NCBI RefSeq assembly: GCF_026210795.1
Contig: NC_089430.1
Location: forward strand, 1 to 64,000
Length of the DNA: 64,000 nt
Source: Rhizophagus irregularis
Lineage: Eukaryota
Reading direction: 5' to 3'
A program made the position numbers and the translations under genes. The number at the start of each line of letters is the position of its first letter. The first letter of the stretch is position 1. Shown here piece after piece: positions 36,857 to 60,599 of this stretch. The notes under the pieces were generated by a model. It ran no database searches. It saw only the letters and a program-made list of their open reading frames with translations, and had not been told where the DNA came from.

Positions 36857-38959
36857 TATACCACCTCGAAGGTATCATTTGGATTTGAAATCCTGCAACT
36901 TGTGAAGTCATCATTATTCGAAAGTAGTGGCGACATATAATGCCGCAGGATATATTAGACATGCACGAACAAAGGTAAGAAATGGAATCAATTATCACCA
37001 CGAAATATATATGCTTTTTATTTTCAGGTCGCATATCGGTAATCTTCCATACTTCTTGAATGTTTTCTTCACCAACTTCAGCAATTATTGACTTCAACAG
37101 AATTTGCTTAGCATCATATGAATCTTCAACACATCCTTCCATTACACCAGCTTCTGGATCCTATATAGCAATAGTATTAGATTTCGTTAACATTTCAATA
37201 TATAAAAAAGACACTAAATACCTCAACGATATTTGGTTCCACTTGACTTGGTACAAAGTAAAGGCATTGTGCCATTTCCATACGCTCAGCAGACAATATT
37301 TGTGGGGTTAGGTATTCAGTCATTATTTTATCGACTTTAGGAAAAAGGTCTTGACTAACCGTTATAATCCCCACGTAAGTTGATAAAATGCGGTACTCAA
37401 AAAACCGATTCCATTGAGCTTCATGTTCAAACCGTGCATCAAGAGCATCTGCGAGACCGCATAATGTACTGTTTGCTGACAACTCACGCTTGATTATATT
37501 ATTGTGACTTTTGACGCGGAAAGTAGTTTGAATTCCTGCGGTGAAAATTTTTGACGTAAATGCACGAGCTCACGCTTGACGACTAGGATAAAGAGCTCTC
37601 ATCAGGTAATCCTTTATACTAGGATATTTTTCTATAAGCTTAGACCACCTTTCATAAAAAAGTTCTTCATACAAACTGTTACGACATGAAAAAAAGCTCC
37701 GAACGAAACTTTCATATTGATCGCTGAGCTTTGATTTAACATTCTTTGGTAGATTTTCGCTGATATGGAAAATGCAATGAATCGGGTGAGTTGTCTCGTA
37801 TATTTGTGTGATCGCTGCGTTCATGGTGGGATCGGCATCTGTGATGAACACTAAAGGTTCTGTCATTGTTGCTTTTTTTGTGCACTCCAAAATCCATTTA
37901 TAAGATTCTACCGATTTGTCAGATACGAGGGCTTGAGCTACAAGTCGTGATTTAGTATTGTTATTAACGACAAGGAAAAGTGATAATGGCATTTGATAAC
38001 GGTTGGTCTTAGCAGTGTTATCGTTTAAAATAACATCATGATACTCTAACCAAAGAGTAATTTGGGACATAGACATCCAAAAAAGCTGAGTAAGTCTTTT
38101 ATCTTGATCAAACTGAAAATCAATGAACCATCTGGGATCGTTTGACTTATGCTCAATTAGTATTTTTAGTAAGCGAAATGCATCATGGATTACATCTGGC
38201 CTAACCTTATATTTTTGTATTACATTAGAGAGATCACAGTCGAGAATAGATATAGTCAGAAATTTTGCCTTCAACAACTTTTGTTGAGTGGTAATCGGTA
38301 AATTTCTATGTTCGGTGAGAAATTGGACTTCTTTAAGGACATCATCAGGAATGCAACGGTATTTTGATGAATAATTTTCAGTATCAGCAGGAAATAACGC
38401 ATAGTTGTGCAAATTATTGAAAGTGGTAAGAGATACGCCTTGAGAGTTTTGAGGGCAATTGAAATTTGCATTCCATGGACATTGCTGGCATTTTGATTTA
38501 TGATCTTGATGACTATTAATATCAACTTGTTTTTGTGGATGATAATGGCCGCCGAATTCACATCTAAAGCTATGATGTTTAATACTCCCATCTTCACGCT
38601 GACCTAATCGTTTCTTTATAATCGTAAATTCATGTCTTTTGCTATAGGCTTTTATGATTCCGTCCACATCTCCCCACGACCTAAAGGTATCGCCTATGGA
38701 AAGATTTGTTATAGTTAAATATTCAAGGTAACACAGGTCGAACAGGTGTCATTGTCGCAAAATTTGCCTGGAATTTTTCTGGCAAATTGAGAATTATCCC
38801 GGTAAATTGGGGTAAATTGTGTTACAATTTTGGGATAATGGAGGACTTACAATTTGGCAAATTTTGTCAAAATGGCAGAATTCCTACAGAATTCCTAATT
38901 CAAATGTTGAGAAATTTTTCAGATAAATTATCATTAAATTGTGGGAAATTCTAGGCAAA

Positions 38960-39440: not shown

Positions 39441-40479
39441 ACGTAAATTGCAAATTTGAAATAAAAACTTTCCATTGTTGCACAATTTACCAGGAAAATT
39501 CTGGTAAATTGTGCATTTTTTTGTCAAATTTTGGAAAAATGGACCGTTTTACCAAAATTTAACTTTTAAATGCTAGAAAATTTTTAGCAATTTTAGACAA
39601 TTGAGTGACAATTGTTTGACAATTTTTGGACAATTGAGTGTAAATGTAATATTTTTAAGACAATTTCTGACAATTGAGTAATAATTAAGCAACAATTTTG
39701 TGTAATTTTATACAAATTTTATAACAATTTATTGATTCTAATTTTATTAACAATTTATCTAATTATTCAATTATAACGTGTAATTAAGTACAATAATGTT
39801 AAAGAAAACAAACATCAAAAAAAAACAAAAAGTTTCGAAGGTTAATCTTCGAAACTCACCAAGCAAGGAGCCAAAGAACTATTAACTTGTTACAATAACC
39901 TACAAAAAAAGAAAACCATTCAGTTAGAATGTTTCTTAAAGATAAAACAGAAGTTTCGTAACAAAACGTACAAAACTTACCATTTCAGAAGCCATATCCA
40001 ATACCTGAATGTAAAGTAATGGCTTATATTCAACAATGGTTTTACGAGATTCATGTTTCCTAAGTTAGCTTTCCAGATATCCCCGAACTTACAAAAAAGA
40101 GAAGGAACGTTAGTAAACGGTCCTAATAAAAAAAAATTTAAGTTTCATGATATTTGTCATGAAACTCACCATTTAAACTAAAGTTTCGAAGTTATACTTT
40201 GAAACCTACACGTTATCCAAACCCAAGTTCGAATCTGGAGGGGAGGGACCTACAAAAGAGAATAAAAAAATGTTAATAAAACATTTCTTTAAAAAACAAA
40301 CTGAAGTTTCGCAACGTTTTTTTTGTTGCGAAACTTACCAAAGTCAAGTATCCCGCTCGAACTTACAAAAAAAAAATAGAAAAGAAACATTAAAAAATGT
40401 TTCTAATAATAATAAAAAAAAACACGGTAAGTTTTGTTGCGAAACTTACCATTTTCACTTTCCAATGATACCCGAATTG

Positions 40480-41170
40480 GAGACCTATAAGAAATGAAAA
40501 AGTAAAAGAAACGTTAGAACGTTTTTTAATTAAAAAAAACAAAAAAGATAAGTTTCGTTGATGAAACGAAACTTACATTTTTCCGTTTCAGAATCCTGGA
40601 GCATCGGAACCTACAAAAAAAGTAGAAGAAACGTTAGAGAATGTTTCTTAATTAAAAAGAAAATAAAATATTTTAAGTTTCGTTAACGAAACTTATATGT
40701 TGACGTTTCGGAATCTTGGAGTACCGGAACCTACAAAAAAAAGTAAAAGAAACGTTAGAACGTTTCTTAATTAAAAAAAATATAATATAATAAGTTTTGT
40801 TAAAATGAAACTTACATTTTCCATTTCGGGAATCCTGGAGCACCGGAACCACCGAACCTACAAAAAAAAGTAAAAGAAACGTTATAGAACGTTTCTTAAT
40901 TAAAAAAAAATATAATATAAGTTTCGTTAAAACGAAACTTACATTTCCGTTTTGGCCATTAATGAATATTCATGCTGAAACTTGGCGTTCTTCTGGACCT
41001 ACAAAAAAAAGTAAAAGAAACGTTAGAACGTTTCTTAATTAAAAAAAATAAAAATATAAGAAGTTTCGTTAAACGAAACTTACATTTTGCCGTTTCGGAA
41101 ACCTGGAGTACCGGAACCTACAAAAATAAAGTAAAAGAAACGTTAAAACGTTTCTTAATAAAGAAAAAAA
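40480..41170. repeat. Tandem repeat, about 120-bp unit
   Basis: Repeated 'ggaacctacaaaaaaaagtaaaagaaacgttagaacgtttcttaattaaaaaaaa...aagtttcgttaa..cgaaacttacat'. Confidence 0.85.
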
Positions 41171-42229
41171 ATAAAAAAAAAATAGTTTTGTAAGATAACA
41201 AACTTTACCTGACTTCCAAATGTAACGATAATTGCCATACCAACGGGAAATGGGAAAGGGGAGGGGGAAGGACGAGAGAGAGGGAAGTGGGGAGAGAGAG
41301 GGAAGGAGAAACGAGAGGGAGGGTGACGGGAAAATGGTGAGAAGAAGGGAAGAGCGAAATAAACTAAATTAGTTTTTTTTTAAACTCTAAAAAAAAACTG
41401 CAGCTGCGGCTGCGGCTGCAATAGTTTATTTTTAGTATTTTTAGGTTAGTTAAAAAATGAACTGCGGCTGCGGCTGCGGCTGCAGTTTAACCAAGTTCAT
41501 GTCACGTGATACACGTGACATGTATTTTATATAAATAGGGGGCTTTTTCCTGAAACTTTTTTTTTTTTTTTATAATTTTTTTAATTTAATGATAGATGTA
41601 TATATATACATATATATATACATATATATATATCTATCTAATAAACTTTACGAAAAGCCCCTCCTCTGTAAACAGGTAGAGGCCATAAAGTACCTATAGG
41701 GGGAGAGCCATTGCTGCTCCCTCCGCCTGTTTATAGTGACAAAAAGAGGGAGTCTTCAGTAGTAAGGTTTAGTATTAAATTAAACAACATATCACAACAC
41801 ATCGTGTTGTAATTAAGTGTAATGCTACGTTATCCAATGTAATTGTAGTATTTTTTTGTGTTTTTTAGTGCAATTCCACGTTTTTTAGTGCAATTCCGCA
41901 TTTTCTAGCATAATGTTACATTTTCCAGCATAAATAAAAATTATCCTAATAATTTTAATGTAATTAAGTGTAATGCTACGTTATTCAGTGTAATTGTAGT
42001 ATTTTTTTGTGTTTTTTAGTGCAATTCTGCATTTTTTAGTGCAATTCCGCATTTTCTAGCATAATGTTACATTTTCCAGTATAATGTGAAATTTTCTAAA
42101 AAATATAATAATTGTGGTACTTTTTAGTGTAATGCTACATTGTCTAGTGTAATTGTGGTATTTTTTAGTTCAATTCCACATAATCTAGTATAGTGCTACA
42201 TTTTTCAGTATAATTTAATGTAATGTAGA

Positions 42230-42473
42230 TAAGGTTGCTTGCCGAAACCTAGGGGTTTAGGCAAGATGGCGTTTTGCCGAAAAGCGAAATTCTGCTGAAA
42301 CTATATTAAAGTTATATTAAAAAACTGGCGAAACTTTGGAGAAAGGCGAAACTGCCAAAACTTATTATAAATGCCGAAACTGCCGAAACTCTGCCGAAAC
42401 TATAATAAATCTATAGTAAAATTTTGATGAAACTAATCGTAGGATTTTGAAGAGGTTTAGACAAGCAACCTTA
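42230..42473 (+). mobile_element. hAT-type MITE, copy 2
   Basis: TAAGGTTGCTTG...CAAGCAACCTTA with a perfect 8-bp duplication AATGTAGA (42222-42229 and 42474-42481). Confidence 0.9.
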
Positions 42474-43595
42474 AATGTAGAATTTTCCAAAAAATGTGAT
42501 AATTGTGATACTTTTTAGTGTAATTTGGTGAAATGCTACATTTTCCAGTGTAATGCTATATTATTGAGCATTTTCCAAAAAAAAATTGTAACATTTTAAC
42601 ATTCTGACGAAAATGAAACATTTGACCAAAAAAACATAAAATTTGCTGAAAATATGCAACATTTGACAAAAAATATAGAATTTTCATAAAAAATATACCA
42701 TTTGCTAGAAAATTGGAATATTTGACAAAATTTGATTTTAATTGACAATGTTATAACAATTTTATGAAATGTTGTTACAATGATATCACATTGGAAATAA
42801 AATGTGGCATTTTCATAAAAATGCACCATTTGCAAGAAAATTGGAACATTTGACAAAAAAAAGCAAAATTTGATTTTAATGACAATGTTATAACAATGTC
42901 ACGAAATGTTACGAAATGTTACATTTGAGATATAATGTAGCATTTTCCCAAAATTTCATAAAATTTGCTAAATCAAACAATGTTGTAACAATGCTATTCC
43001 AAAAAATTGCTCAGCGTAATGCAGCATTTTCCACAATTTCCCACCATTTTCCAGAAAAATGTGGAATTTGCATTTTTTGAATTTTGGACAATGGTGCCTT
43101 TTCGACCTGTATAAAGTGATATTGTTTATTAGTGCTTTTAGCCGATTGTTATATCTTTACATGGAGAAATTAATAATCATACCTTCACTTTCTAGGTTCT
43201 GAGGTACTATATCGCTCGGCTCAACCTGTTCTATATGAGAAAATAAAAAGTATGAATATTGCAAAATAAATTAGGTATATCATAAGAAACACAACATACC
43301 CATATTAGTATCATCCTGGCATACTTTTCCTGATTCCTCTTCTGGGTTTGTATGTTCCAGAATAAGAAATGATATTGTACCTACTCAAAGTACATAAATA
43401 AAGAACTTACATACCTTCATGAGGTGTCATAAACATGATAATGAATTCTTAGATATTTAATTCAGATACGTCCATCTCGATATGATACTTCGTTTTGTAA
43501 AGGGTAAAAAAAAAGAACTTGTAAAAAAAAGACAAAGTAAATAAAGTGAGCGAAGTGTTATACCGTGAGAATAGTGTGAGAATTAATTAAAGACG

Positions 43596-44507
43596 AGTAG
43601 GGCAAACTTGGGGGTTCTGGGACAGCGGCTATCACATAGGTCTAACCATAATTTAGTGTACCCCCAGACCACCTAGCCTTGTTTTCTGATATGTTAACAC
43701 TATACCTGTTTTTCTATCCCCAGATCACCTAACCTTGATTCCCGATATGTTATTACTTGATAGCTAAAAAAGAACCCCCAAGCGTTGTAGATAAGATTAA
43801 CATCATTTATTCCTAGGCATTATTACCACGCATGGATCCATTCCAGGGTATCATAATTTTATGCTATATCAGATTGCCTTTATAAGTGCCAAAGGTATGA
43901 AGGACACGAAGTGTCTGTAATACCGATGGCACGATTCAGCAATCCATTGTGGCATACTATTTTTATGATACTCTAAAATGGATTCATTTGATGATTTAAG
44001 CCATTCATGCTCTAACCAAAAATTTTTAACAGGAAGGTAACTAGACATATTGTAAAGCTTTTCCTGCTATACGAAAAAATCTGGGACAGTGAAGTCTAAC
44101 CAAAAATCTAACCCAGGTCTAACCAAAAATGTATAGCAGGAAGGCAACTAGATATGTTTTAAAGTTTTTCCTCCTATACGAAAAAATCTGGGACAGCGAA
44201 GTCTAACCAAAAATCCAACCCAAGTCTAACCAAAAAATGTATAGCAGGAAGGCAACTAGATATATTGTAAAGCTTTCCCTGCAATACGAAAAAATCTGGG
44301 ACAACAGGTCTAACCAAAAGTCTAACCAAAAATCCGTCTGAGGTCTAACCAAAAAATATACAGCAGGAAGACAACTAGACATATTGTAAAGCTTCCCCTA
44401 CAATACGAAAAAATCTGGGACAATGAAGTCTAACCAAAATTTAACTCTAATCATAAATTGCTCTGATTCTTTGACGAAGCCTATTTTCATACCGATTTTG
44501 ATAGTAA
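43596..44507 (+). repeat. Left terminal inverted repeat of the Polinton-like element
   Basis: Near-identical reverse complement of 54463-55373. Inner half has about 120-bp tandem units rich in TCTAACCAAAA. Confidence 0.95.
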
Positions 44508-44683
44508 CTCCCAATATGAGATTGACATCGACCACTAGATGAACCTGTAGGTTTACCACATACAGCACAAGGAAAGCGTGATTTTGTCTTCCAATGAATG
44601 CGACAACCTTCTGGCCTCACACAAGGACGACCACAAGGCTTTCCTGTGTTATGTAAATATTCACAAGTATATTCTCCAATCAT
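44447..44683 (-). CDS. Small Cys/His-rich protein (putative zinc-binding), 78 aa
   Basis: MIGEYTCEYLHNTGKPCGRPCVRPEGCRIHW...CAVCGKPTGSSSGRCQSH. The 3' end lies inside the TIR. Confidence 0.6.
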   Translation of the reverse strand: MIGEYTCEYLHNTGKPCGRPCVRPEGCRIHWKTKSRFPCAVCGKPTGSSSGRCQSHIGSYYQNRYENRLRQRIRAIYD

Positions 44684-44735
44684 TTTTATTAAGTATAAAT
44701 AAGTTAAATTAAAAAAAACTTTACATGATATAAAA

Positions 44736-45113
44736 ATGATGTCTACCCAAGCTATACCAGCTAAGCCAACATACCGTGAAATTGAATCAGTTCTAATTGC
44801 TGTAATTAAAGCAGGCATCCTTTACAAGAAACCAAAGGATGGTAAATTCATGTTATGTTACAAACAAAGGATAATCAAATTGCGTCAAGCAGAAGAACCA
44901 GAAAATTTTGTTCTTGAAACAGCACAATCTATTCTACCTAATGAGACAAAGTATCAGCAAATCTTGGAAAATTATAAGACCTGGTATAGCAGAGAGCCAA
45001 AACTTTTGTCTGCTATTAATAAGCTATACAGGTTATACTACGAATTGGCAAAAGACTACTTCCTTACAGACTCCCAAGCAGATGATGAGGTAGAAGACTA
45101 TCTTAATTCATAA
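44736..45113 (+). CDS. Hypothetical protein of the Polinton-like element, 125 aa
   Basis: Clean ATG-to-stop ORF with protein-like composition, tightly packed between its neighbours. Confidence 0.55.
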   Translation: MMSTQAIPAKPTYREIESVLIAVIKAGILYKKPKDGKFMLCYKQRIIKLRQAEEPENFVLETAQSILPNETKYQQILENYKTWYSREPKLLSAINKLYRLYYELAKDYFLTDSQADDEVEDYLNS

Positions 45114-45120
45114 GTACCCA

Positions 45121-46200
45121 TTATGGTGGAAGTTCTGTATCATCTGGTATAACCAAAAGTTCTTCCCTCACAAAGGATCTCTCTGATTCTTTACCATCAT
45201 CATCAATAAGCCAGTACAAAATTGGTTGATTTTTCTGTGTTAAAGACATATGGATATGATAAATCTTAGGTGACCAATTCATATCTCCTGCTCGACGTCT
45301 TCCACCTTCCAGATCATTTGGTTCAAGTAAGTACCTTACACTTATATCAGGTGGTAGTTTCTCTTCTTCATACCCAACAGGTCCATCACGAGGATAAGAA
45401 GATCTGGAAGACACTCGTGATTTTTTTATAGCTACAGCAGGAGATATACCAAGTTGTTGGGTCACTGAGTTATTTATACTTTCTACAGCAATAGGTAAGT
45501 TTTTTACCCAGACTCAAGATCTCGTTTTACCTAAAGTTAGTAAGTCAGATGCATTTTGAGAGAGAAATAGTTTCTCAACCAAGGTACGGTTATATCGCTC
45601 CACAATGCCAACAGTACGCTTAGACTTGGCCTTCTGAATCTTTACACCATGGGAAGTCATCAACTTTTCACACTCACCTTTAAACTCTGAACCCCTATCT
45701 GTAATTAATAATTTTGGCCAAGTGAGCGGACATGTTGTATCATCATATACCTTTTCAAAAGCCCAAGCAATAGTATGAGAAGTTAGGATTCTCTGTCGAT
45801 CTTTAACACTGGTTGAACCTATAGGGACACTTTCTTTATACCTCGATGCTATATCAACTATATTGAGACAGAAAAGATAAGTCACATGTCCAACCTTGTC
45901 ATATGGCATATACAAAATGTCAGCTTGATGAACTTCATTGGGAAACTTGTATAGAACTAAAACTTACACGAGAGATAAATCGGGGACGAGGTTTGTGAAC
46001 TTGATGTACTGCCTGTCTTTCAAGCCAATCCTGCACTTCATCTAAGGTGAAATCATATCCAGCATTTTGTGATGTCTCATACAATTTTTTGGCAGTTCTC
46101 TGATATCCAGATGGTTGATAAAATATTCTGCATAAAGTCGAAGTCACCTCTACATTTCGTGCTTCATCAGAATCTATTTTAATAATAGGTATCAATGGGA
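45121..46200 (-). pseudogene. Polinton-type retroviral-like (rve, DDE) integrase, disrupted
   Basis: IFYQPSGY...VQDWLERQAVHQVHKP, QADILYM, IVDIASRY, LITDRGSEF, VERYNRTL and NWSPKIY...SFVREELL. Frameshift near 45940 and an in-frame TGA at 45514-45516. Confidence 0.9.
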
Positions 46201-48279
46201 GTTGAACAGGCATATCTTGATCTGCTAAATAGCAACTTTGCTTTACGTAAAGAGCTGATATTAAAGGAAACAAATAATATTTCCAATAAGGAGAAAATCC
46301 GTAAACTCACAAAGGAGATAGAGGCATGTGAACGATATATCTTCTATCTTGAAAAAAATCTTGTTTCACGTGAGGATGAGATCGATCAGTTAAAGGCAGA
46401 GTGTCAGTCCACTTTAGTTGAACTTGGAAAGTATCGAGATCACTTAGAGTTAAAGGAAGAGGCACTTGTTGCCCAGGATGAACGTATCATTCAGCTTGAA
46501 GACACAGTAGATAAACTCAAAAAACGCATTCAAGAATTATTTTTATGTAAAGAAAAGATAGAAATGGATGAAGATAATGAATTATTCAATCCTATTCTAA
46601 GAATACTAGACCGCCGACGGGCAGTTGCAGATTGTGTGTCTGAAATTCGACTATTTTTTGATCGGAATAGGATTCCAATTCCACAAGACATAGATGATGT
46701 CTTTAATGCTACCACTCAAAGTCTTGATGAAATTATTCGTCAAGCTGCTCTAATGCAAGAAATTGGTGTAGACCAACTAAATCAGATAGAAGGATTGCAG
46801 ACATTACTTGGAGAATCTTTAGATCGTACAAATGCTCTTAATCAAGACTTAATAAGAGTACGTGATGATTTTACATATGAGAGAAATGCTCGTAGACACT
46901 GGGAAACTGTTGCACAACAGAATCAAGCACATATTGCAGGAATACAAATAGCCAATCTAGGTATATGTTTTCTGAATAGACGCAAAGATGCACAACTGGC
47001 AAACCAACAGAATCAGCTGGTAAATCATCAGAATCAGATAGCAAACCAACAGAATCAGATAGCTGAGCATCGAAGGAATGCACACAGGCTGATGTTACGC
47101 TATAATGCTGATACAGAACGTTGGAGAAGAAGGCATGCAGGTTGTATACGTCAGGCACAAAACTGGCAAAGACAATATAGGATTTCACAGACCCAGGTAC
47201 AAGCACAGGCCCAAAATATTTTAAATTTACAACAACAAATATTAGCGTTACAAAACAATCCTCCAAACATGGCTACAATACAAGATGTCATGCATACTAT
47301 ATCACCAGGTCTTGCACAGTTACCATTTTATGATGGACAAGAGCCGCCAGACTCTTATTATCAAAAGCTTAGAGCTGTCAATGAGATGGCTCGTCCACTA
47401 GCTTTTGCTGGTTTTAATGCTGCTATGAGGTGCAATGTCATGAAAAATAAAATGTCTGGTAGATTTATTCCTGTTCCAGTAAATAATCCATATAATGGCA
47501 ATGCTGCTATTAATACAGAACCAGAGTTTCTAAACTGGCTGCAAGGAAAATATAGAGATGTGATGGTTGGAACAAATCAAGGTGCTATAATAGCACTCAT
47601 GAATGAATCATTTTCTCCTATAGATACACCAGATACATATGCAAAAAGAATTCGATCATTAGCACAAGGACAAGTATATGCCGAAATTTTACCTTATCTA
47701 TATAATCATTTGCCTGATGCTTTAGAAATGAGAGTTAGAATTGCTGCTCCTGCTGATCTTGATGCTTTCTTTAATGAGTTGCGTAATAAATGGTATGAAA
47801 GTGGAGGGCGAAAAAATCCAACCACTATAGTAGAACAACCACAGAATAGAACTGCATTAGAAAAGCTTGCAGATATAGCAGTACGTCTTGGCTATACTGG
47901 TGACATAACAAATCCTGTAGCAATACATACTTTCATTGAGAGTGATCTTACCAGAAAGTTAGGTGGATAAACACAACATCTAAGAAAAGATCACTTCGGA
48001 ACTGGTCAGATTAAAAAGGTGACAAAGACAACCAAATCTTCTCCTAAACGTCATTGCTCAAACTGTGGTAGAACAGGTCATTCCAAAAACAAGTGTCCAC
48101 GGAGTAGACGTGCTAAGAAAGTTAACAATACTCACATAGTTGACTATGAAGAATCTGAAAGTGATGAGGAAACTGATGAAGAAACTGAGGAAGAGTTAAC
48201 TGAAGAAGAAGAGGAGGAGGATGAACCTCAGAATTGCTTTAGTGTAAAAAAAAAACTCGTCAACGTGGAGTTTCGGTAA
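46195..48279 (+). CDS. Gag-like protein: long coiled coil, helical domain, CCHC zinc knuckle, acidic tract (one in-frame TAA at 47968)
   Basis: ORFs 46195-47970 and 48019-48279 share a frame. LPFYDGQEPPDSYYQKL resembles the start of retrotransposon Gag capsid regions. CSNCGRTGHSKNKC is CX2CX4HX4C. Confidence 0.7.
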
Positions 48280-49193
48280 AAACCAAAGGGAAAAAATCCC
48301 GTACTTCCAAATCTAAAAGAGAACCTATTCTCAAGAAAACTGATGAAGTCTTTCATGCAGCACTGAAGTCTATAATTGCTTCACTAGCAGCACAATGTCC
48401 TAAAGAAATCCTCCTACAGATTAATGCTTATACCAATCAAGCATATGAGAATCTGAAAGACCCGCTTTTAAACCATTTTGTTAGTGACTATCCAGTTAGT
48501 GAAAGAAAGAAACTCTGGGATGTTCTTTCAGCAAATATGCAAGACATTTTATCTCCTCTAGCTCATGCTGTAAATACAGCAACTCCACTATTACCAACTC
48601 CTCCTGCAGATGTACCATCTGAAGTAGAACAGAAAGAAGACAAAACACTGAACCATGCAATACGTGCCTATCAGCAGAAAAACCTATACTGGCCAAGACC
48701 CTTAGAAATCAACTTTTTCCAGTTAGATGATCCCAATGATGTAGCGACCATTTCCTGTAAAATCAAAAATGTATGCATACCCTATGCTATGATCGATACA
48801 GGGTCTGACTCTTCAGTAATCTCTGAGAATGTAGCTAAGCATCTAGGTCTCAAAATAGATCGAAAGAATATACATGCACTTAATGGTGTAGCTGGATCAA
48901 CCAAAACTCTTGGCACTATCAATGAAATTCCCATAACTATTGGTGAAGGTACAAATACAGTCACTATATCAGACGAATTCTCTGTTATACCTACCGAGAA
49001 GGATCGAAATGGTAAGGACAAATCATTGCTAATACTTGGTATACAGTGGCAGTATCATGCAGGTTGGGAACCTGTAGTAAAGGGTGAGTTCAAAGCAAAT
49101 GTAAATGGACAGGTTGTCTCAATTCCTCTCTCTGTACATAAGGCACAACGTAATGTTTTTGCAGTAGATAGCCAGCCTATAAAAAAAAACTAG
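48245..49193 (+). CDS. Retropepsin-like aspartic protease in the -1 frame relative to Gag
   Basis: AMIDTGSDSSVISENVAKHLGL and LILGIQW. The frame is open from the A10 run at 48246-48255 to TAG 49191-49193. Confidence 0.85.
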
Positions 49194-49441
49194 CTGATCG
49201 TACCTGTCAGCATTGTGGGAAGGAATTCCCATATCCTTCTAATCTTAGACAACATTTTTTACGAAAAAATCCATGTGCAGTAAAAAAGTCCCATGCAAAG
49301 CCCATGCAAAGTCCATGTGCAGTTAAAATTTCCCATGCAAAGTCCATGCAAAGTCTATGCACAGTAAAAAAATCCCATGCGCAGTCCACACAAAATTTGA
49401 GTGAAGCAACAGTACCCATTCGTCTATTTCTTGATGAATAA
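49190..49441 (+). CDS. Zinc-finger-containing extension in the -1 frame relative to the protease (no start codon ahead of the finger)
   Basis: LADRTCQHCGKEFPYPSNLRQHFLRKNPC, followed by SHAKPMQSPCAVK-type repeats, ending TAA 49439-49441. Preceded by the heptamer A AAA AAC. Confidence 0.6.
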   Translation, partial: LADRTCQHCGKEFPYPSNLRQHFLRKNPCAVKKSHAKPMQSPCAVKISHAKSMQSLCTVKKSHAQSTQNLSEATVPIRLFLDE

Positions 49442-49447
49442 TGGGAA

Positions 49448-49885
49448 CTACGACATGGAAGCAAGTTTTTTTTCTATTTCTCGTACTTGCTTCTTCATGG
49501 TATCAATTTCATGTCGTATCTGATGATTTGTCTTGATCAATTTCTCATGTTCTTTAGTAAGGTTCTGCATGAATCGGCCAAAAGTAACCTTATTATATTC
49601 AAGCAAGTGCTTCTGAAGTATGGAAACTTCTTCACTAATTATGTCTTGTATCATTCTGTTTCTTGGCATATATGTCTGTTTAACAGTTAGTTTCTGACGT
49701 GCTAATTTTTTCTGGTATCTTTCTACTTCATGTTTCAAAAATAACTCTACCATGGAATTTACTCCACTGGCATCAGACACAGATAGTGGATTGCGCTTCC
49801 TTGTTGTGAGACGAATCCATGCCTCATGTATTACAGAAGCTGGTAATATAACTAGTAGCTCAGTGTATACCTGGTTGAAAGACAT
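49448..49885 (-). CDS. Hypothetical coiled-coil protein, 145 aa
   Basis: Intact ORF within the element, co-oriented with pPolB. Confidence 0.55.
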   Translation of the reverse strand: MSFNQVYTELLVILPASVIHEAWIRLTTRKRNPLSVSDASGVNSMVELFLKHEVERYQKKLARQKLTVKQTYMPRNRMIQDIISEEVSILQKHLLEYNKVTFGRFMQNLTKEHEKLIKTNHQIRHEIDTMKKQVREIEKKLASMS

Positions 49886-49977
49886 TAGTTCTTATTACGA
49901 AAAAAAAATTTGGAATTCCAAAGAATTCTGAAGAATTCCATAGAATATCTTATCATATGACACCTCCCAGAAATCTG

Positions 49978-50247
49978 TTAGATGTCATGTGCTAATGATT
50001 GTCTTTCTCTTAGTATTGAATAATAAAATGCCTCTACTAAGTCATAAAAGGCATTTGGAATGTTTGGTACAGGGCATTTCATAAATGCATTAATACTAGT
50101 CTTAGAACTTATGACCATTTTAGCTAATGCCTTTATACTTTTTATTGCATCCTCTACATCTTTAAAGAGACCTCTCTGAATTGTGATATGTATAAGGTCA
50201 TCGATATATTCTTTACTATGTATATCATAGATTGGATCGTCTTCCAT
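49978..50247 (-). CDS. Hypothetical protein, 89 aa
   Basis: MEDDPIYDIHSKEY... ORF immediately downstream of pPolB. Confidence 0.5.
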   Translation of the reverse strand: MEDDPIYDIHSKEYIDDLIHITIQRGLFKDVEDAIKSIKALAKMVISSKTSINAFMKCPVPNIPNAFYDLVEAFYYSILRERQSLAHDI

Positions 50248-50320
50248 TTTAACTACTGAAAAAAAAATATAATTTATTATTAATATATGCCTAAGTATCA
50301 CTAAACTATTCTATATCATT

Positions 50321-53300
50321 CTAATATTTCTCTGGTAATCTGGTCCCTATAGCTATTTTTTCTGCTGCCTCATGACTTGTGCCACGCTCAAGAAGTTTCT
50401 TATATACTTGAATACGCCAGTGTCCGAATGGTAAGGAGGATATACCATCTGACCAAATCCAGCGTTTTGTATCGATTGGGGATAATGCCTTCTTCTCTGA
50501 CTCGATTAGTGATATTACATGATTTTTTGTACGCATTCCCACATTCTTGGCATAGAAGATATTATTTTCAAACAGACAGTCCCGATATACTTGAGTCATA
50601 GGATCGAAGATTTCATCTTTTTCTACTGTATCATCTAATAAAGTTCCACCTAAAGATGGGAAATATGTGTCCTTAGCCATATCACTCATACCCTTCTTGC
50701 TTACTCCTTTATGTTTGGACTTTGTAGACTTGTCTGCCAAGACATAGTGGTAGGATTTTGCACGGATGTGGTAGGATTCAGTAATTACATTTCCAGGAGT
50801 CTCATCCTTGAAAAGCCCGATAGTCTTGGTATCATTAAGGTCAAAGAGATCTGGACGCTCTGCCATATCCTTGTAAATATCTTCTGTCTCGACATGGTAG
50901 ATAAAGGAGTCAGTATCCATATATCCAAGTCGTACTTTGTTTCCATACTTCTCTTTGACAAAACCATACCAGAAGCGGTACATTAAGAGTTTACTGAGAC
51001 CAAGGACAGATGCACCGATAATGATAGGTTTATTGAGAATAACACTAGCCTTTCCCATATGTGCTCCTACAAGTGTGTTGCCAAGTTGACGAGCATACTT
51101 GAAGGAGGGCTTGCGAACTTTCTTAAGGAATTTCTTCTCATCATTTTCATTGATCATTCTCATAAGCTTGACATCCTGATACTTACGTACATTCTCCATA
51201 GTCTTGCCATAGACTGAGTTATTCATGAGTTTAAAGAAGTCTTTCTCAAATGAATTCTTGGATTGTTGACGTAAATTTGTATTTTTTGCAATATAAGGAG
51301 CTAACCAGTTATCTTGATCAAATGATAGGACTTGTGTAATCTCATCTACAACCATGCCTAACTTAATGTAATACTGGAGCTCTTGGTAATGTATGACATA
51401 ATCTTCATGTTTACCAAGATGTGGAACTAACTTTTCTGTTTCAGGAAATCGCCCTCCATCTAAGTTATCAACAAGTTTGGTTATATATGGGCTTAACCTA
51501 TCCTTTTTTACAGCTATACTATCAACTGCAGGAGGTAAATCTTATAGATAATCATGAGTCCTAAGGGGGTAGTGCGCTTTGATATTTAGGAAGTAACCAC
51601 AGGCAGCATCTGGTTTTGTATTAAGAATTACATTAAGTATCTGCTTCTGCTTATCTGGATTCTGTTTGAAATATTCTGGAGATGCTTCCCATCTGTAATT
51701 ACCAATAGGTAAGTACTGGCTCATAGCCCATCCATACAGATTGTTTGCATCTACATAGGAAATCCAGGTAGTAGGTTTAGAGGGATTAAAAGAGTCACCC
51801 ATCTTAGGGTTATTGGCTTTTAGAAAACGGTGTCCAGCCATAGCTATTCCTCCACGTTTAGCCTTTTCAGTAAAATCATGCATGGTCATGTCAGTGAATA
51901 GCTCTATTTTGACTCCAGTCATCTTAAGCATGCCATCCCATGAAAGTGCTGGTGCAGAGACATAATGACTTGGGTCAAGTCCATAATGATGCATCGCTGT
52001 CTGTTAAAACTTTGTCCAGACATCTGCTAGGAGAAGAACATCAGTCTTAAGGTAAAGGTCATGATACTCGCCCAAGTTCTTGCAGCCAAATTCCTTCCAA
52101 ACTTTTTGTGCATGTTTGTAATTATCCTGAGTGATCTTTCCTCCAAGAGTACTATGAAAGTCATGAATAGATGGGAGTTCTGTCTCCTTGAAACGATCAT
52201 GTGAATCAATATATTTATAAGGATAAACCCCTTTACGTGTGATTAAGTCAATATGTTCAGACGAGAAGTTTTTGAAGTGTCGCTTTGTGAGGGGTTTATC
52301 TGTCCCTAAATTCTTTGCAAGGTTTGCAAGACTGGAGGCCATGAACTGCATGCTATCAATGTACTTGAATTGCCCTACCTTCATGGATTTGTAACGTTCG
52401 AATGTCTCTGCAATAACTTTGATTTGATGTGCTCCAATTGATCGTCCAACAGATTCACAAACTAAATGGGAGTCATAGCCACAGAAGTTATGAAATACTA
52501 CAGGAATTGGAGTCTTCCATGCTTCGATTTGAAGCTTAAGATTGCATGCATTATGAGCAGCTCCACGAAACTTACCTGTGATGTGGCAGTGATCCCAAAC
52601 TTTTTTGTCTTGCACGCCCTGATTGAAATTCCCATTACATATCCAACAACTAACTGCTTCAGTGAATTCCTTTTTAGCTTCCTCTGTTATAATACGTTCT
52701 ACTTTTACTTCTAAAACATCATTAATCCTTCTTAATTCTTTATCAAGTCTGCAGACAAACTCTTCTGTTGCATTTGGTCCTCGGTATAAGAATGGCCCCC
52801 ATGTCTCATCAGTTTCAATCCAGTGGACCATATAGCAGAAGCTATTAGCCTTTTGCTCCATAATCTTATGCATATTTCCACCATAGTTTTCATTACACTT
52901 TCTGTTATCAGCCTCAAAGTCTGCAATAATTACACATGGAGCATACATTGTTCGGTTAAAATTCTTAAACTCCTCAAAATCATTCTTACCTTTAACTGGT
53001 AACTCAACTCTTTGTGGTGACTCACCTAATCCAAAACACCATTCCTGATGATTAGTTAGAGATTTAGACGATGGAAAGCTTTGGAAGCACCGATTGCAAA
53101 GATGCTTCTTTCCCTTGTGGGATGTATCTTTGTATATTAAAGCATCAGGATTCTTAATCCAAAGGAAGTGATTCTTCTGACCATACTTTCCTTCATCTGA
53201 TTTTGTAATATCTGTAAGGGCCATGAGGTGAATGATATGTTGACGGTTGTAATTCTTACTTGCAATAACAGGTTTTGGAATACCAGTTTTCTCCTCCCAT

Positions 53301-54392
53301 TCCCATACATTAATGGAGATCTCAGGATTGAGGTCCTCAATCTTGCTAAATATGCGTGGACAAACAGGAGTGGGCATGGGAATTGCATTGAGATTGACTT
53401 GTTCCAAGTATGGCTTAAATTTTTCTGCCCGAAAGATTCGCTCAAGTTTTTGTGTATGTCCATCTTTATATGCAAAGTAAGCACCTAAAGCCCCTTGCAA
53501 ACATTTTTCAGAGAGCAAGCCTGTGTCCGGATCTATGAGATCTTTGTTATCCGGATTGATAGTGCACTCACTTCTTATTTGCAAGTGCCTTAGGTGTAAG
53601 TATGTATGAGCCTCCTTCTGCTCGGCGGTAAGTATACGTCTCAATAGTTAATATATCTATACTAACAATTTTCCAACCAGACCCTCCTTTCATAAATTTG
53701 ACAATTTTATCTGTGATATCTACTGCTGATTTCGTTAAATGATCATCTATATCATTCTTTAAAAGAAGTACACGCATGACTCCTCTATGATAAACTTGCT
53801 TATATGTTCCACTATTATCTGTATATGTAGCCAATATAGTGATAGCTGATTTGATTTGCCCCTTTTCTTCAAGTTCACTCTCAAGAATTTCTGTTATTTT
53901 CTGACGGGTATCAGCTATTACACTTGGAAAATATGGTATATCTCTAACATTTGGTTTAAGATCAGCTTGCCATACTGTCTTATGTTTTAGAGATTTATGT
54001 GAACGTGCAGGATCATGAACTCTTTTTACAAATTGAATATCACACCATCTTCCTCTATAATCTCCTTGCATATAAGCAAACCATTCATTATCTGTTTGGG
54101 GAGCTCTTCTTTTTCGTGGAGTATATTGATTGTAATCACCAGGTCCTGCTAACCATTTTGCTAGTTCATCAATTGATAAATTAGGAGTTTTCTCTGCAGG
54201 AGCTGGGATAACTTCAGGTATGAGTTCCTGGAGTTGCTCCGGTTGTGGTTGCAATTGTACAATCTCAGGTGTGGGATCCTGAGGGTTAGCTGTAGGCTTG
54301 CATAGAAACTTTCTATTTTGATGCCCACGAAGCTTTTGTGGAGTTGCAAAAGTCTTTCCACATCTATCACAAGTTCGATTACTTGTTGCCAT
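50321..54392 (-). pseudogene. Protein-primed family B DNA polymerase (pPolB) with N-terminal zinc finger and endonuclease VII-like insert, disrupted
   Basis: Exonuclease motifs ADFE, FHNFCGYDSHL and YLKTDV. EndoVII-like CWIC...DHCHITGKFRGAAHNACNL. Polymerase motifs YVDANNLYGWAM, KLMNNSVYGKTM and YMDTDS. Frameshift near 53570; in-frame stops at 52004 and 51542. Confidence 0.95.
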
Positions 54393-54462
54393 ACTGGTTG
54401 TGTACTAATAACCTAAAAATTTTTTTCTTCAATTAATAAATTCTAAAATGTTTTCCATCTTA

Positions 54463-55373
54463 TTACTATCAAAATCGGTATGAAAATAGGCTTCGTCAAA
54501 GAATCAGAGCAATTTATGATTAGGGTTAAATTTTGGTTAGACTTCATTGTCCCAGATTTTTTCGTATTGTAGGGGAAGCTTTACAATATGTCTAGTTGTC
54601 TTCCTGCTGTATATTTTTTGGTTAGACCTCGGACGGATTTTTGGTTAGACTTTTGGTTAGACCTGTTGTCCCAGATTTTTTCGTATTGCAGGGAAAGCTT
54701 TACAATATATCTAGTTGCCTTCCTGCTATACATTTTTTGGTTAGACCTGGGTTGGATTTTTGGTTAGACTTCGCTGTCCCAGATTTTTTCGTATAGGAGG
54801 AAAAGCTTTAAAACATATCTAGTTGCCTTCCTGCTATACATTTTTGGTTAGACCTGGGTTAGATTTTTGGTTAGACTTCACTGTCCCAGATTTTTTCGTA
54901 TAGCAGGAAAAGCTTTACAATATGTCTAGTTACCTTCCTGTTAAAAATTTTTGGTTAGAGCATGAATGGCTTAAATCATCAAATGAATCCATTTTAGAGT
55001 ATCATAAAAATAGTATGCCACAATGGATTGCTGAATCGTGCCATCGGTATTACAGACACTTCGTGTCCTTCATACCTTTGGCACTTATAAAGGCAATCTG
55101 ATATAGCATAAAATTATGATACCCTGGAATGGATCCATGCGTGGTAATAATGCCTAGGAATAAATGATGTTAATCTTATCTACAACGCTTGGGGGTTCTT
55201 TTTTAGCTATCAAGTAATAACATATCGGGAATCAAGGTTAGGTGATCTGGGGATAGAAAAACAGGTATAGTGTTAACATATCAGAAAATAAGGCTAGGTG
55301 GTCTGGGGTATACTAAATTATGGTTAGACCTATGTGATAGCCGCTGTCCCAGAACCTCCAAGTTTGCCCTACT
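54463..55373 (-). repeat. Right terminal inverted repeat of the Polinton-like element
   Basis: Reverse complement of 43596-44507 with few substitutions. Confidence 0.95.
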
Positions 55374-56279
55374 AGATGATACGCCTGTAACAAGTGACAA
55401 ATAAAGGTAACAAATAAGTTTTTCAATAACGTGTCATCATGCGACTCATGTAGCGTCACAATTACTACGTAATGTCACGGATTTGATATCATTTTGACCA
55501 AAATTAACGCTAAATTTAGATTAATTGCAAGATTTAACACAAAAGTATAATTTCGGCCAGAATTAATGGCACACTCTAAATTTTCCTTTTTTGGAAATTT
55601 GTATAACACTTGTGCAGCGGGTTTCCCCAATTTTGATGGGGAAAAATATTTTCTTTTTTAGAAATTCGTGTAATGTCACGTGACAATTCCAAGGTTGTTA
55701 CAGATAAAAATGTGTAACAGGATATTACAGATACATTTTTCCTTAAGAAAATATAATTGGATAATAATAAAAAATTAATTAGAAATAATAATATAAAACG
55801 TATAGTGACATGTGGAAAATTTCTGGAGTAAGGAGAATTATTTTTAAAACAAGGGAAAATATTTTAAATAGTAAAACGTGATAGATTGAGGGGCTAAAAT
55901 AACAAATTAAGTTAATGGAATCTAAATATAGCGATCTACTAAAATTAGAGATCTATTTTTAGAAATGTTAATGAAATGATCGACAAAATTAGTCGCTAAA
56001 TTTAAGATAAATAAAATATTGACAAGCCTAAAAGATGAGAGAATAATGGTAGAAAAGCAAACAAATAAATTGAGAGAAAATATAGGATATTTTTATGAAA
56101 CATTAGAAGAAGAAGGCTAAACGAATATGAAAATATAAAGATTAAATTAATGATAGGACATGGAAAATTAATATATAATATATAATTACAAATTATCAGA
56201 ATGATTTAGAATGGATGCAACACTTTAATCTTTACAATACTTTAACCTTTACAACACCTTAACCTTTACAATATTTTAA

Positions 56280-57658: not shown

Positions 57659-57859
57659 TTAAATCTATTGAAATTAACTTTTAAATTAGATTACAAATTA
57701 TTAAAATATTATAAAATTGAATTTAATGATATTTGATTGATTTGATATTTTTAAAGGTAAATTCAATATTTATAGATAATATCATTTTGATATTATTTTG
57801 ATACTGAATTATTAAAATAATATTATATTGATATTGCATTTATTAAAAAAAAATCATTA

Positions 57860-58560
57860 TTGTTATAACAATATCAAAATGATATCGTTTCATTATATCA
57901 AAATGATATCATATTAATATCGTATTTACTTTCTATTTTTCATTATTGTTATAACAATATCGAAATGATATCGATTTGATGTTTCATCAATATTGTTATG
58001 ATGTCAATTAGATAATTATAAAGTAATATCTTTACGATATCATATTGATATTGAATTAATGTTGGAACGATATCATATTAATATCGTATTTACTTTCTAT
58101 TTTTCATTATTGTTATAACAATATCGAAATGATATCAATTTGATGTTTCGTCAATATCATTATGATGTCGATTAGATAATTATAAAGTGATATCTTTACG
58201 ATATCATATTGATATTGAATTAATGTTAGAACGATATCATATTAATATCGTATTTACTTTCTATTTTTCATTATTGTTATAACAATATCGAAATATCGAA
58301 ATGATATCGATTTGATGTTTTGTCAATATCGTTATGATGTCGATTAGATAATTATAAAGTGATATCTTTACGATATCATATTGATATTGAATTAATGTTG
58401 GAACGATATCGTATTAATATCATATTTACTTCCCATTTTTCAAAAAATTCATTGTTGTTATAACAATATCGAAATGATATTGATCTGATATTTTTTCAAA
58501 CAAATATCTTTACGATATCATTTTGATATATTGAATTAATATTGAAATGATATCATTGCG
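57860..58560. repeat. Tandem repeat, about 164-bp unit (GATATC-rich)
   Basis: 'tattaatatcgtatttactttctatttttcattattgttataacaatatcgaaatgatatc' recurs at about 57912, 58076, 58240 and 58412. Confidence 0.9.
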
Positions 58561-60599
58561 ATATTATAATAATATCATTTGCAAATCGATATCGTCACAA
58601 TATTTATTTAACATCATTATTATATCAATTCGGTATTGTTTAAAAATTCAAGATTTCTGTAAAGTATTCAGAACAAAGTTTTTTAAATAATTCAATAAAA
58701 GATGAATGTTCAACAATTGCGAAAAGAATGCCACAAGATACAAACACTTTAAGTAAAGATTGATCTGTTGCGTCTTATTTTAGCTTTGATAGTACATTAT
58801 TACTATCTTTATCCATAAAATCCATAATAGAGAGTTGCTCAAGTCAGGGATGTTTATTACTTTCAATATCTTTTTCTTCACCATATAATTGCAAAATACT
58901 TCATATAAAAACTCTGTTTATTTCATCATCAACTTTTAAACAGTCTTTAGCAAGATGAATCTGAAGGTCTTGTGGTCATCTTCATGCCCATTTTTGATTA
59001 CAATTGTAACATTCAGCTGCAAAGTGACCAGCTGTTGTCAAAGGTATTTGAATAAAATATACCAGACAGGATCTTGTAAGTGACCACTTTTAACTTGTCA
59101 AATAAATCCTTTAGTTCTTTTTGTTATCATATCAGTTTAATTTAAGAAAGTAGGAGAACGAAAAAAAAGGAAATGAAAAAAAAGAAGGGATGAAAAAAGA
59201 GAAGAAAAAAGGAGAAACAAAAAAAAGGAGAATTAGAAAAAAAGATTAATAAATGACAATCTTTTTTTTTACTGATTATCTCTAGTTAATTTCTTTCTAT
59301 AATGACTTACATTATTTAAATTAAATTTACAATTTATCAATTTTACTTATAATAAATTAATAAAGAGAATTTTTTTATACATAAAACATTCATTAAGAAA
59401 AGTTACACAGTTAACATTTTACTTTATTTATCAAACAATGCATTTTGGATAATTTTTGGAATTTCAGACTATTTTTGGCATTTTAGATTATTTTTGGCAT
59501 TTTAGATGAGTTTCGTAATTAAATTTGAAAACTGAAATAGTTTCAGAAGTTTCAGGTGGCAGCTTTAGAACAAGTGACGCTTATGTAAAGCTCAAAAAAA
59601 GAATTTATGTAAAATCTAATAAAAAGCAACAACTTTCAAATTTTGACTAACAAAAATGAAAATTTATTATTATTATTTTTAACAAATGTTAAATTTTCTA
59701 TTAACAGCCCTATAAAAAATATATATACGGTTAGTATACTGTATTTTCATATTTTATGAACAGTATATTTATAGTATTATTACCGTATAATTACAGTATT
59801 TTCACATACTGTATATATTCAGTATTCTGCACACCGTATCATATATATGGTTTGCATACAGTATATTTTTTCAGTTTCACCTGTATGTTTTATACTTGTA
59901 AACAGTAGAAAAACCGTATGTTTTATACTTGTAAACAGTATATTGTTTTATATTTTATATTGCGAACAGTATACTTTTCCAGGATAAACCGTATATTTTA
60001 TACTGATAAACAGTACTTTTTTCCAGTTTAAACTGCATATTTTGTACTAATAAATAGTATATATTATTCAATTAAATCGTATATTTTATATTTGCAAACA
60101 GAATTTAAAATGCATTTATAATCAATAAAATTTTTATTAAATAATATTAAATATACAAATATTTTTTATAAATAATATAAATAAAAAACTAGTATAAAAT
60201 AATATACTATTTGTAAAAAAAATAATATTAGCAAAATATAAACAAAAAAAAAAGAAATTTAATTAGTAATATTATCATTATTTTAAATATAAAAAAGGAA
60301 TAATAAAAGGTTAATAAAAAAAAGAAATTTAATTAGTAATATTATCATTATTTTAAATATAAAAAAGAAATAATAAAAAGTTAGTAATATTATTAATATA
60401 TTAGTTAGATATAAAAAAGTAATAAAACGATAGTAGTAATGTTAGTAATATATTAAAAAAATTAAATAAAATACATAAAAGTAAAAAAAAAAATATAATT
60501 AATATATGTTAACATATAATATTAATATAAAAAGAGCAAATGGTTAGCACGACTATAAGGAGAATAAGAAATCATTTAGAAAAAAAAAAAACACGGACA

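What the first reader, a model, noticed from the sequence alone, without database searches (positions are those of the whole stretch)
43596..55373. Maverick/Polinton-like element carrying retroviral-type Gag and aspartic protease instead of the usual capsid module
Established: canonical Polintons encode pPolB, rve integrase, an A32/FtsK-like packaging ATPase, an adenain-like cysteine protease and double/single jelly-roll capsid proteins. Seen here between intact TIRs: pPolB, Polinton-type integrase, four small ORFs, and a coiled-coil/Gag-like/CCHC-knuckle ORF followed by a DTG retropepsin. I see no Walker A ATPase, cysteine protease, jelly-roll-sized ORF, RT, RNase H or internal LTRs. The Gag start abuts the integrase start head-to-head with no spacer, which argues for an integral module rather than a nested LTR retrotransposon. 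Inference: a chimeric self-synthesizing DNA transposon that may use a retroviral-like particle.
Basis: partly seen in the sequence, partly recalled or inferred. Interest (0 to 1): 0.85.

Follow-up and report, generated by a model that had tools for sequence, protein, structure and literature searches.

The report
Maverick transposon with retroviral capsid genes
A mobile DNA element of mycorrhizal fungi carries the DNA polymerase and integrase of Maverick transposons but, in place of their usual virus-shell genes, a conserved gene predicted to fold like a retroviral capsid plus a retroviral-type protease, so it likely packs itself into a retrovirus-like particle.

Summary
Observation confirmed. 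Window 43596-55373 is a broken copy of a mobile 11.8-kb Maverick family of arbuscular mycorrhizal fungi (98-99% to Rhizophagus irregularis proteins). It has 912-bp TIRs, a 5-bp TSD, pPolB and an rve integrase, and no room for a jelly-roll capsid, A32 ATPase or adenain.

The Gag is real: its predicted fold ranks retroviral and retrotransposon capsids first, it has a CCHC knuckle, and Gag and protease are under purifying selection. It is integral: 12 of 12 related loci long enough show the integrase head-to-head with Gag, four link to pPolB, and none shows RT. A conserved A-run places the protease in the -1 frame, and a second A-run leads to a zinc finger.

Particle formation is inferred, not shown. 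Whether every pPolB copy carries Gag was tested only indirectly, and A32 ATPases are reported from these fungi.

Prior art: a 2021 figure legend labels a Gag/retropepsin in a pPolB element, probably this family, without discussion. New variant of a known kind; interest 0.74.

The parts
43591..43595 (.). left copy of 5-bp target-site duplication (AGACG)
   Evidence: empty-site joint 43590->55374 in run X17
43596..44507 (.). left TIR, 912 bp, with four ~107-119-bp subterminal repeats (about 43984-44423)
44447..44681 (-). small Cys/His-rich ORF (orfZ), end inside the TIR; homolog in L004 (47%)
   Evidence: start at the second ATG is inferred
44736..45113 (+). orfA, 125 aa, predicted all-alpha bundle, function unknown; conserved in L003, L004, L009
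45103..46213 (-). Maverick-type rve integrase, broken in this copy (frameshift near 45943, early stops at 45514 and 45121)
   Evidence: intact relatives of 364-395 aa
46195..48279 (+). Gag: N-terminal coiled coil (~350 aa), CA (47269-47808), helical spacer, CCHC knuckle, acidic tail; early stop at 47968 in this copy
48246..48255 (+). first A-run in X-XXY-YYZ phase, predicted -1 frameshift (or slippage) site Gag to protease
   Evidence: 9-10 A in the same phase in 17 of 17 sequences
48243..49193 (+). helical linker plus retropepsin (DTGS), -1 frame relative to Gag
49172..49441 (+). C2H2 zinc-finger ORF in a further -1 frame, behind a second A-run just before the protease stop
49448..49885 (-). 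orfB, 145 aa, partly coiled coil; accessory (homologs in L003 and L008, absent from L001 and L012)
49978..50247 (-). orfC, 89 aa, no Pfam hit and no homolog in the 38 loci
50321..54392 (-). protein-primed DNA polymerase B with N-terminal C2H2 and Endonuclease VII insert; broken in this copy (frameshift near 53568, early stops at 52004 and 51542)
   Evidence: one open frame of 1413 codons in L001
54463..55373 (.). right TIR, 911 bp
55374..55378 (.). right copy of TSD (AGATG)

Best explanation
This is a broken copy of a mobile Maverick/Polinton family of arbuscular mycorrhizal fungi that lacks the jelly-roll capsid, packaging ATPase and cysteine protease and instead keeps, under purifying selection, a Gag predicted to fold as a retroviral capsid and a retropepsin, which likely build a retrotransposon-like particle around the element's own DNA. 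Shown: TIRs, TSD, an empty site and other insertion flanks; pPolB and integrase; the conserved Gag-PR block and its frame layout. Inferred from Maverick biology: the excised element is copied by pPolB from its termini and reinserted by the integrase. Inferred from the layout: most ribosomes make Gag, a minority shift -1 to give Gag-PR, and fewer shift again to give Gag-PR-zinc finger. Gag would co-assemble on nucleic acid through its knuckle, which removes the need for a packaging ATPase, and the retropepsin would mature the shell in place of adenain. Speculative: the rare zinc-finger product selects the element's DNA. In multinucleate, fusing hyphae a cytoplasmic particle would suffice to reach other nuclei and other individuals.
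For: Fold: the AlphaFold model (pLDDT 85) gave retroviral, retrotransposon or Arc-type capsids in rows 1-29 of a search of 48,161 chains. Examples are PEG10 CTD (Z 10.5, rmsd 2.2 over 81 residues) and Copia capsid (Z 9.3 over 156 residues). All listed Foldseek PDB rows are CA-family (best E 0.08), and the Atlas top hits are Retrotrans_gag (0.90-0.92). A CCHC knuckle is present in 12 of 12 Gags examined. Selection: dN/dS is 0.15-0.22 for CA and 0.04-0.19 for the protease core in all pairs tested. Linkage: the integrase lies head-to-head in 12 of 12 loci with at least 1 kb upstream of CA, about 10 families; the other 26 of 38 loci are too short. pPolB is linked in L001, L003, L012 and L031, the last in a different gene order. 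Gag-PR and pPolB have near-adjacent accessions in R. irregularis (2 pairs) and in Entrophospora, whose pPolB cluster is the deepest branch of the fungal clade. Cluster sizes are 66 and 60. No RT domain appears in 37 longer protease homologs or in 34 of 150 CA-profile hits scanned. Frame layout. Mobility.
Against: No particle, protein or protected DNA has been observed. Fold scores are moderate: the tool notes that Z below about 13 can be generic for helical bundles, pTM is 0.48, and no Foldseek hit reaches E 0.001, so the support is the uniform ranking across searches. pPolB and the integrase lie on the opposite strand and are not fused to Gag, so they would not be packaged automatically as retroviral enzymes are. 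CCHC knuckles prefer single-stranded nucleic acid (recalled). Integrase and CA divergences are not congruent (Mantel r 0.08, p 0.24, 10 elements, short segments), and dS is lower in Gag-PR (0.15-0.41) than in INT or pol (0.46-0.91) for one pair, so the module recombines between families. L008 shows no pPolB in 3.5 kb after the protease. L006 has the protease in the +1 frame, and L002 and L003 lack the second A-run. A32-like ATPases related to Maverick ones are reported from Glomus and Rhizophagus, so a helper with a canonical capsid is possible.
Confidence: 0.58

Rival explanations
1. Gag-PR is an integral, selected cargo but does not encapsidate the element. It acts as a replication scaffold or chaperone, or as a dominant-negative restriction factor against host LTR retrotransposons, like Ty1 Gag-derived Drt2, and the element moves as a naked DNA transposon.
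For: The enzymes are not fused to Gag. Drt2 is among the fold matches (Z 8.7). Capsid-less Polintons exist (passage). The module appears to recombine.
Against: A restriction factor would not obviously need a full CA, a knuckle, a protease at dN/dS 0.04-0.19 and a conserved frameshift layout that sets a structural-to-enzyme ratio. It replaces exactly the morphogenetic module.
Confidence: 0.22
2. Gag particles form but package the element's RNA (or host RNA). Spread then needs a reverse transcriptase in trans, or the particle serves RNA transport or shielding from RNAi.
For: CA-NC-PR modules package RNA in known retroelements (established knowledge). R. irregularis targets young TEs with small RNAs (passages).
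Against: There is no LTR or RT, and the ends are long TIRs. pPolB is under strong purifying selection (dN/dS 0.06-0.09). The genes lie on both strands, so no obvious full-length RNA template exists.
Confidence: 0.15
3. Gag-PR is the remnant of an LTR retrotransposon nested in one Maverick lineage and copied passively.
For: The gene order CA-NC-(-1)-PR is that of LTR elements, which must be its ultimate source.
Against: Purifying selection. The same junction with the integrase occurs in about 10 families whose CA segments are 38-92% identical. The start codons share one CATG in 6 of 12 sequences. No LTR or RT remnant was found.
Confidence: 0.04
4. Sub-step rival: Gag and protease are joined by splicing of an intron starting at the A-run, as public gene models assume, not by frameshifting.
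For: NCBI models join Gag to protease across this stretch (P0008). GT precedes the A-run in 12 of 17 sequences.
Against: 5 of 17 sequences lack the GT while keeping the A-run and its phase. No such joint is among the 15 shown of 23 in four runs (low-depth contigs, weak). The same A-run layout recurs at the protease end.
Confidence: 0.12

Closest known systems
[quoted passage not shown] 5 of Starrett et al. [quoted passage not shown]
   Same: A pPolB-bearing element with a Gag/retropepsin label. The paper places Rhizophagus pPolB in its trees. It is probably this family.
   Different: The figure is not held, so which element bears the label is inferred. The section text read (3.4) does not discuss it: no fold test, linkage, selection, frameshift or host range.
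Polinton of Glomus intraradices (= R. irregularis), Kapitonov and Jurka 2006, as cited in PMC7805220
   Same: Same host; described as a Polinton with no detectable major capsid protein.
   Different: Read there as having lost its capsid. Here a retro-type capsid module is present. The original paper was not held, so identity with this family is untested.
Canonical animal Mavericks/Polintons (Polintoviricetes, alpha-adintovirus-type pPolB)
   Same: pPolB 40-48% identical to the nearest non-fungal hits, named ones from coral and gastropods; integrase alignable over core and C-terminus (22%); TIRs and TSD.
   Different: No double or single jelly-roll, A32 ATPase or adenain; 11.8 kb against a typical 13-25 kb; a separate fungal pPolB clade.
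LTR retrotransposons and retroviruses (Ortervirales Gag-Pro)
   Same: CA fold, CCHC knuckle, retropepsin, and two successive -1 frames as in Gag-Pro-Pol viruses (the comparison is recalled).
   Different: No RT, RNase H or LTR; a C2H2 finger sits where Pol would be; the integrase is Maverick-type and on the opposite strand.
Replication/capsid chimeras such as Bidnaviridae (polinton pPolB in a parvovirus, passage) and caulimoviruses (Gag-derived coat around DNA; recalled)
   Same: A replication module and a structural module from different virus realms.
   Different: Here the pairing is protein-primed DNA replication with an Ortervirales-type shell and no reverse transcription.

Membership tests
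Maverick/Polinton (transposon definition) | protein-primed DNA polymerase B | tested here: met
   PF03175; motifs YVDANNLYG and YMDTDS; nearest named non-fungal hits are animal proteins, one a Maverick-like fusion with rve
Maverick/Polinton (transposon definition) | retroviral-like rve integrase | tested here: met
   PF00665 E 1.6e-7; aligns to the integrase part of coral protein P0141
Maverick/Polinton (transposon definition) | TIRs of 100-1500 bp | tested here: met
   912/911 bp, 99%; range
Maverick/Polinton (transposon definition) | 5-8-bp TSD | tested here: met
   5 bp with one mismatch; empty-site joint
Polintoviricetes (virus definition) | double jelly-roll major capsid and single jelly-roll penton | tested here: not met
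   No unassigned gap over 92 bp; remaining ORFs are 78-145 aa; orfA is all-alpha; orfB, orfC and orfZ were not folded
Polintoviricetes (virus definition) | A32/FtsK packaging ATPase | tested here: not met
   No Walker A in six frames of the element; one match inside pPolB of L001 among 5 loci scanned; no Pfam hit
Polintoviricetes (virus definition) | adenain-like cysteine protease | tested here: not met
   No Pfam hit among 15 ORFs and no room
LTR retrotransposon (nested) | Gag with CA fold and CCHC knuckle | tested here: met
LTR retrotransposon (nested) | aspartic protease downstream of Gag | tested here: met
   weak PDB match to Ddi1 (E 0.04)
LTR retrotransposon (nested) | reverse transcriptase / RNase H | tested here: not met
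   None in the element, in 25 locus ORFs, in 37 longer protease homologs or in 34 CA-profile hits
LTR retrotransposon (nested) | flanking LTRs with their own TSD | tested here: not met
   Self-comparison of 44508-54462 shows no such repeat
Particle-forming element | shells that protect element nucleic acid | not testable with these tools
   Needs electron microscopy and particle sequencing

The most novel reading that the evidence does not exclude
An unrecognised class of DNA element, as old as the radiation of arbuscular mycorrhizal fungi, replicates by protein-primed DNA synthesis but assembles a retroviral-type capsid: a Varidnaviria replication module fused to an Ortervirales virion module. 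A double -1 frameshift makes a rare Gag-protease-zinc-finger protein that selects the TIR-bounded DNA, and the particle moves between nuclei and between fusing hyphae.
Probability: 0.4. Interest if true: 0.9.

Novelty: new variant of a known kind. Interest (0 to 1): 0.74.

Why it matters
It answers a stated gap: the Glomus/Rhizophagus Polinton is listed as having no detectable capsid. At least this family carries a different capsid type. If particles are confirmed, retroviral Gag can package a DNA replicon that is never reverse transcribed, which would be a capsid swap between two virus realms. It also offers a testable route by which one of the recently expanded transposon groups of R. irregularis spreads among nuclei. 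Mavericks have no observed virions (passage), and a single self-assembling Gag is easier to test than the canonical four-gene module.

Tried and rejected
No whole genome is held for this window, so no in-genome copy census was possible. Scans of viral contigs with CA and pPolB found nothing. The single metagenome scan went to Gag, so pPolB-first linkage was not scanned. A laying of DNA runs on the Gag-PR region was not obtained, which leaves open whether Gag-less copies exist in those runs. Stimulatory RNA structure after the first A-run: folding z-scores ran from -1.9 to +1.4 in 17 sequences. A candidate pseudoknot pairs in 86% of cells, but its covariation does not exceed shuffles (193 of 500; one search had a mis-set helix), so it is not supported beyond being a candidate. 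The orfA fold search gave only generic helical bundles (best Z 7.1), and the Atlas gave nothing above 0.78. Integrase-Gag co-divergence was not found. Read depth was not used as copy number. Earlier findings of the scan: none on this element. Nine literature searches found no paper that characterises a Gag-bearing Maverick; the only mention found is the Starrett legend. Kapitonov and Jurka 2006 was not held, and Repbase and most subscription papers could not be searched. The Starrett supplement was searchable only in its first ~4 million characters (no hit); its unseen remainder and Fig. 5 bear on novelty.
Full report
1. Observation. The element spans 43596-55373. Its TIRs are 912 and 911 bp with 8 differences, each with four ~110-bp internal repeats. 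It is flanked by AGACG and AGATG. In run X17 one contig joins 43590 to 55374, skipping the element plus 5 bases, and 6 contigs leave the left end into other flanks. Runs X18 and X19 also lack the element at this place. It is therefore a polymorphic, mobile insertion with a 5-bp TSD.

Pfam supports pPolB with an Endonuclease VII insert, an rve integrase, an aspartic protease, a weak CCHC and two C2H2 fingers. There is no Walker A motif in any frame, the largest unassigned gap is 92 bp, and there is no LTR-like repeat. This copy is dead: the integrase, Gag and pPolB all carry early stops or frameshifts. Relatives are open, for example L001 with Gag and pPolB frames of 697 and 1413 codons stop to stop.

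2. Host and range. The CA region is 97-99% identical to Rhizophagus irregularis proteins. Named Gag or protease homologs come only from arbuscular mycorrhizal fungi: Rhizophagus, Glomus, Entrophospora, Diversispora, Acaulospora, Cetraspora and Gigaspora. Many hits are unnamed metagenome proteins. A CA profile against 1.84 billion representatives found 212 proteins at E 0.001 or better; the best 150 listed are at most 913 aa long. For pPolB, a tree of 47 of the 120 listed hits separates a fungal clade, including Paraglomus, from animal and unnamed sequences with support 1.0 (midpoint root, FastTree).

3. The Gag is real. The model of 47269-47967 (50-row alignment, pLDDT 85, pTM 0.48) is helical with two lobes. 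Among 48,161 chains, rows 1-29 are all retroviral, retrotransposon or Arc/PNMA capsids, several aligned over 140-164 residues. The best is PEG10 CTD at Z 10.5, rmsd 2.2 over 81 residues. Foldseek ranks the same family first in the PDB (best E 0.08) and in BFVD (best E 0.015), and the Atlas returns Retrotrans_gag clusters at 0.90-0.92. No single score is decisive; the agreement across searches is the evidence. The CCHC knuckle is complete in 12 of 12 Gags examined. dN/dS is 0.15 for CA and 0.04 for the protease core in window versus L001, and 0.17-0.22 and 0.06-0.19 in seven other pairs. The short spacer (0.58) and knuckle region (0.34) are less constrained.

4. It is integral. The Gag-seeded metagenome scan gave 38 loci. 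All 12 with at least 1 kb upstream of CA carry the integrase head-to-head; the other 26 are too short. After merging near-identical loci these are about 10 families. Of 4 loci with at least 800 bases after the protease, 3 reach pPolB. L008 shows an orfB homolog, an unknown ORF and an F-box ORF, with neither pPolB nor RT. L031 has pPolB on the other side of the integrase.

In public assemblies, Gag-PR and pPolB have near-adjacent accessions on contigs of equal length: GBC52318/GBC52315, GET52694/GET52688, and Entrophospora CAJ0647442/CAJ0647444. Of the 11 contig lengths listed for the R. irregularis pPolB cluster, 8 also appear among Gag hits (only 15 of 60 members were listed). The start codons of Gag and integrase share one CATG in 6 of 12 sequences, overlap by 19 nt in 3, are about 36 nt apart in 1, and are unclear in 2.

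Against strict co-descent, integrase and CA identities do not correlate (r 0.08, p 0.24), so modules are probably exchanged between families. Loci were chosen by Gag, so Gag-less members of the clade are not excluded. A 2026 preprint reports Maverick-related A32 ATPases from fragmented Glomus and Rhizophagus assemblies.

5. Expression logic. Of 25 sequences checked, 8 were dropped because Gag broke off or the contig ended before the junction. In the remaining 17 of 17, a run of 9-10 A starts at the third codon position, 1-22 nt before the Gag stop. The protease lies in the -1 frame in 16 of 17; L030 has a stop in the overlap, and L006 is +1. A second in-phase A-run sits just before the protease stop in 8 of 11 sequences. 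It leads to a C2H2 finger in a further -1 frame in 7 of them, the eighth contig ending there. The GT donor used by public gene models is missing in 5 of 17, which favours frameshifting or polymerase slippage over splicing. No stimulatory structure was established.

6. Mechanism. Shown: mobility, gene content, predicted fold, selection, linkage and frame layout. Inferred from Maverick biology: replication by pPolB from the termini and insertion by the integrase. Inferred from the layout: Gag is made in excess of the protease, as structural proteins are, and the block replaces exactly the capsid, ATPase and protease genes. A co-assembling Gag needs no packaging motor and brings its own maturation protease. 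I therefore favour an intracellular retrotransposon-like particle that carries the element's DNA (0.58). The rivals are a non-packaging role (0.22), RNA packaging (0.15) and a passive nested remnant (0.04). How pPolB, integrase and DNA would enter the shell is unexplained; the zinc-finger extension is a guess.

7. Comparison and novelty. It meets the transposon definition of Maverick/Polinton, fails the virus definition of Polintoviricetes, and is not an LTR retrotransposon (see membership test). Starrett et al. [quoted passage not shown] 5, and a Rhizophagus MELD virus 6100 is named in a later preprint. The architecture was therefore probably seen once and left undiscussed. Bellas and Sommaruga 2021 still list the Glomus Polinton as having no known capsid. 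Nine searches found no characterisation.

What I saw of each paper. PMC8502044: passages, section 3.4 in full, and a search of a cut supplement; no figure. Passages only: 10.1101/697771, PMC7805220, PMC4028283, PMC11075540, PMC10748475, 10.64898/2026.06.19.733378, 10.1101/2022.05.25.493380, PMC11296320, PMC11161782, PMC8647823. Kapitonov and Jurka 2006: nothing. Statements on caulimoviruses, Gag-Pro-Pol double shifts, knuckle preference and hyphal biology are recalled.

8. Verdict. This is a real, conserved and widespread chimeric architecture, and a new variant of a known kind, probably glimpsed in one figure. Interest 0.74, rising to about 0.9 if Gag shells are shown to carry the element's DNA.

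Noticed in passing
window 47530-48577 and 51705-51805: One contig of run X18 has two joints with CT..AC ends (47824-47931, 48042-48135), that is, introns on the strand opposite to Gag. X18 and X19 have a GT..AG joint opposite to pPolB with a short side. These may be spliced antisense transcripts or the integrase 5' leader; low depth.
   Followed up: no
window about 48296-48310 and loci in alignment A4: The motif TACTTCCAA(A/G)TCT is invariant, third codon positions included, in 12 of 12 sequences downstream of the first A-run. It may be an RNA signal; a pseudoknot was not supported by covariation.
   Followed up: partly
window 44636 / 54453: Run X17 has an opposite-strand joint, suggesting a copy with a longer TIR or a rearranged end.
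   Followed up: no
L003:4710-6138, L008:2409-5527, L031:1885-2205: Variable cargo in relatives: orfB-like coiled coils, a small ORF with a weak Crinkler N-terminal match, an F-box ORF and unknown ORFs.
   Followed up: partly
window 1-about 1500: TAACCC telomeric array at the window start; the element lies about 43 kb from a chromosome end.
   Followed up: no
window 60531-64000: Open frame of a non-LTR retrotransposon (endonuclease + RT), running off the window; unrelated to the element.
   Followed up: partly
window 11947-12312, 23905-24882, 30124-31815, 37195-38748: DUF659 fragment, protein kinase, Plavaka transposase with C2H2 finger, and MULE transposase.
   Followed up: no
window 19000-24000, 40088-43070, 57850-58630: A 5-kb stretch at 7-10% GC, and arrays of ~120-bp, ~150-bp and ~164-bp repeats on either side of the element.
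   Followed up: no
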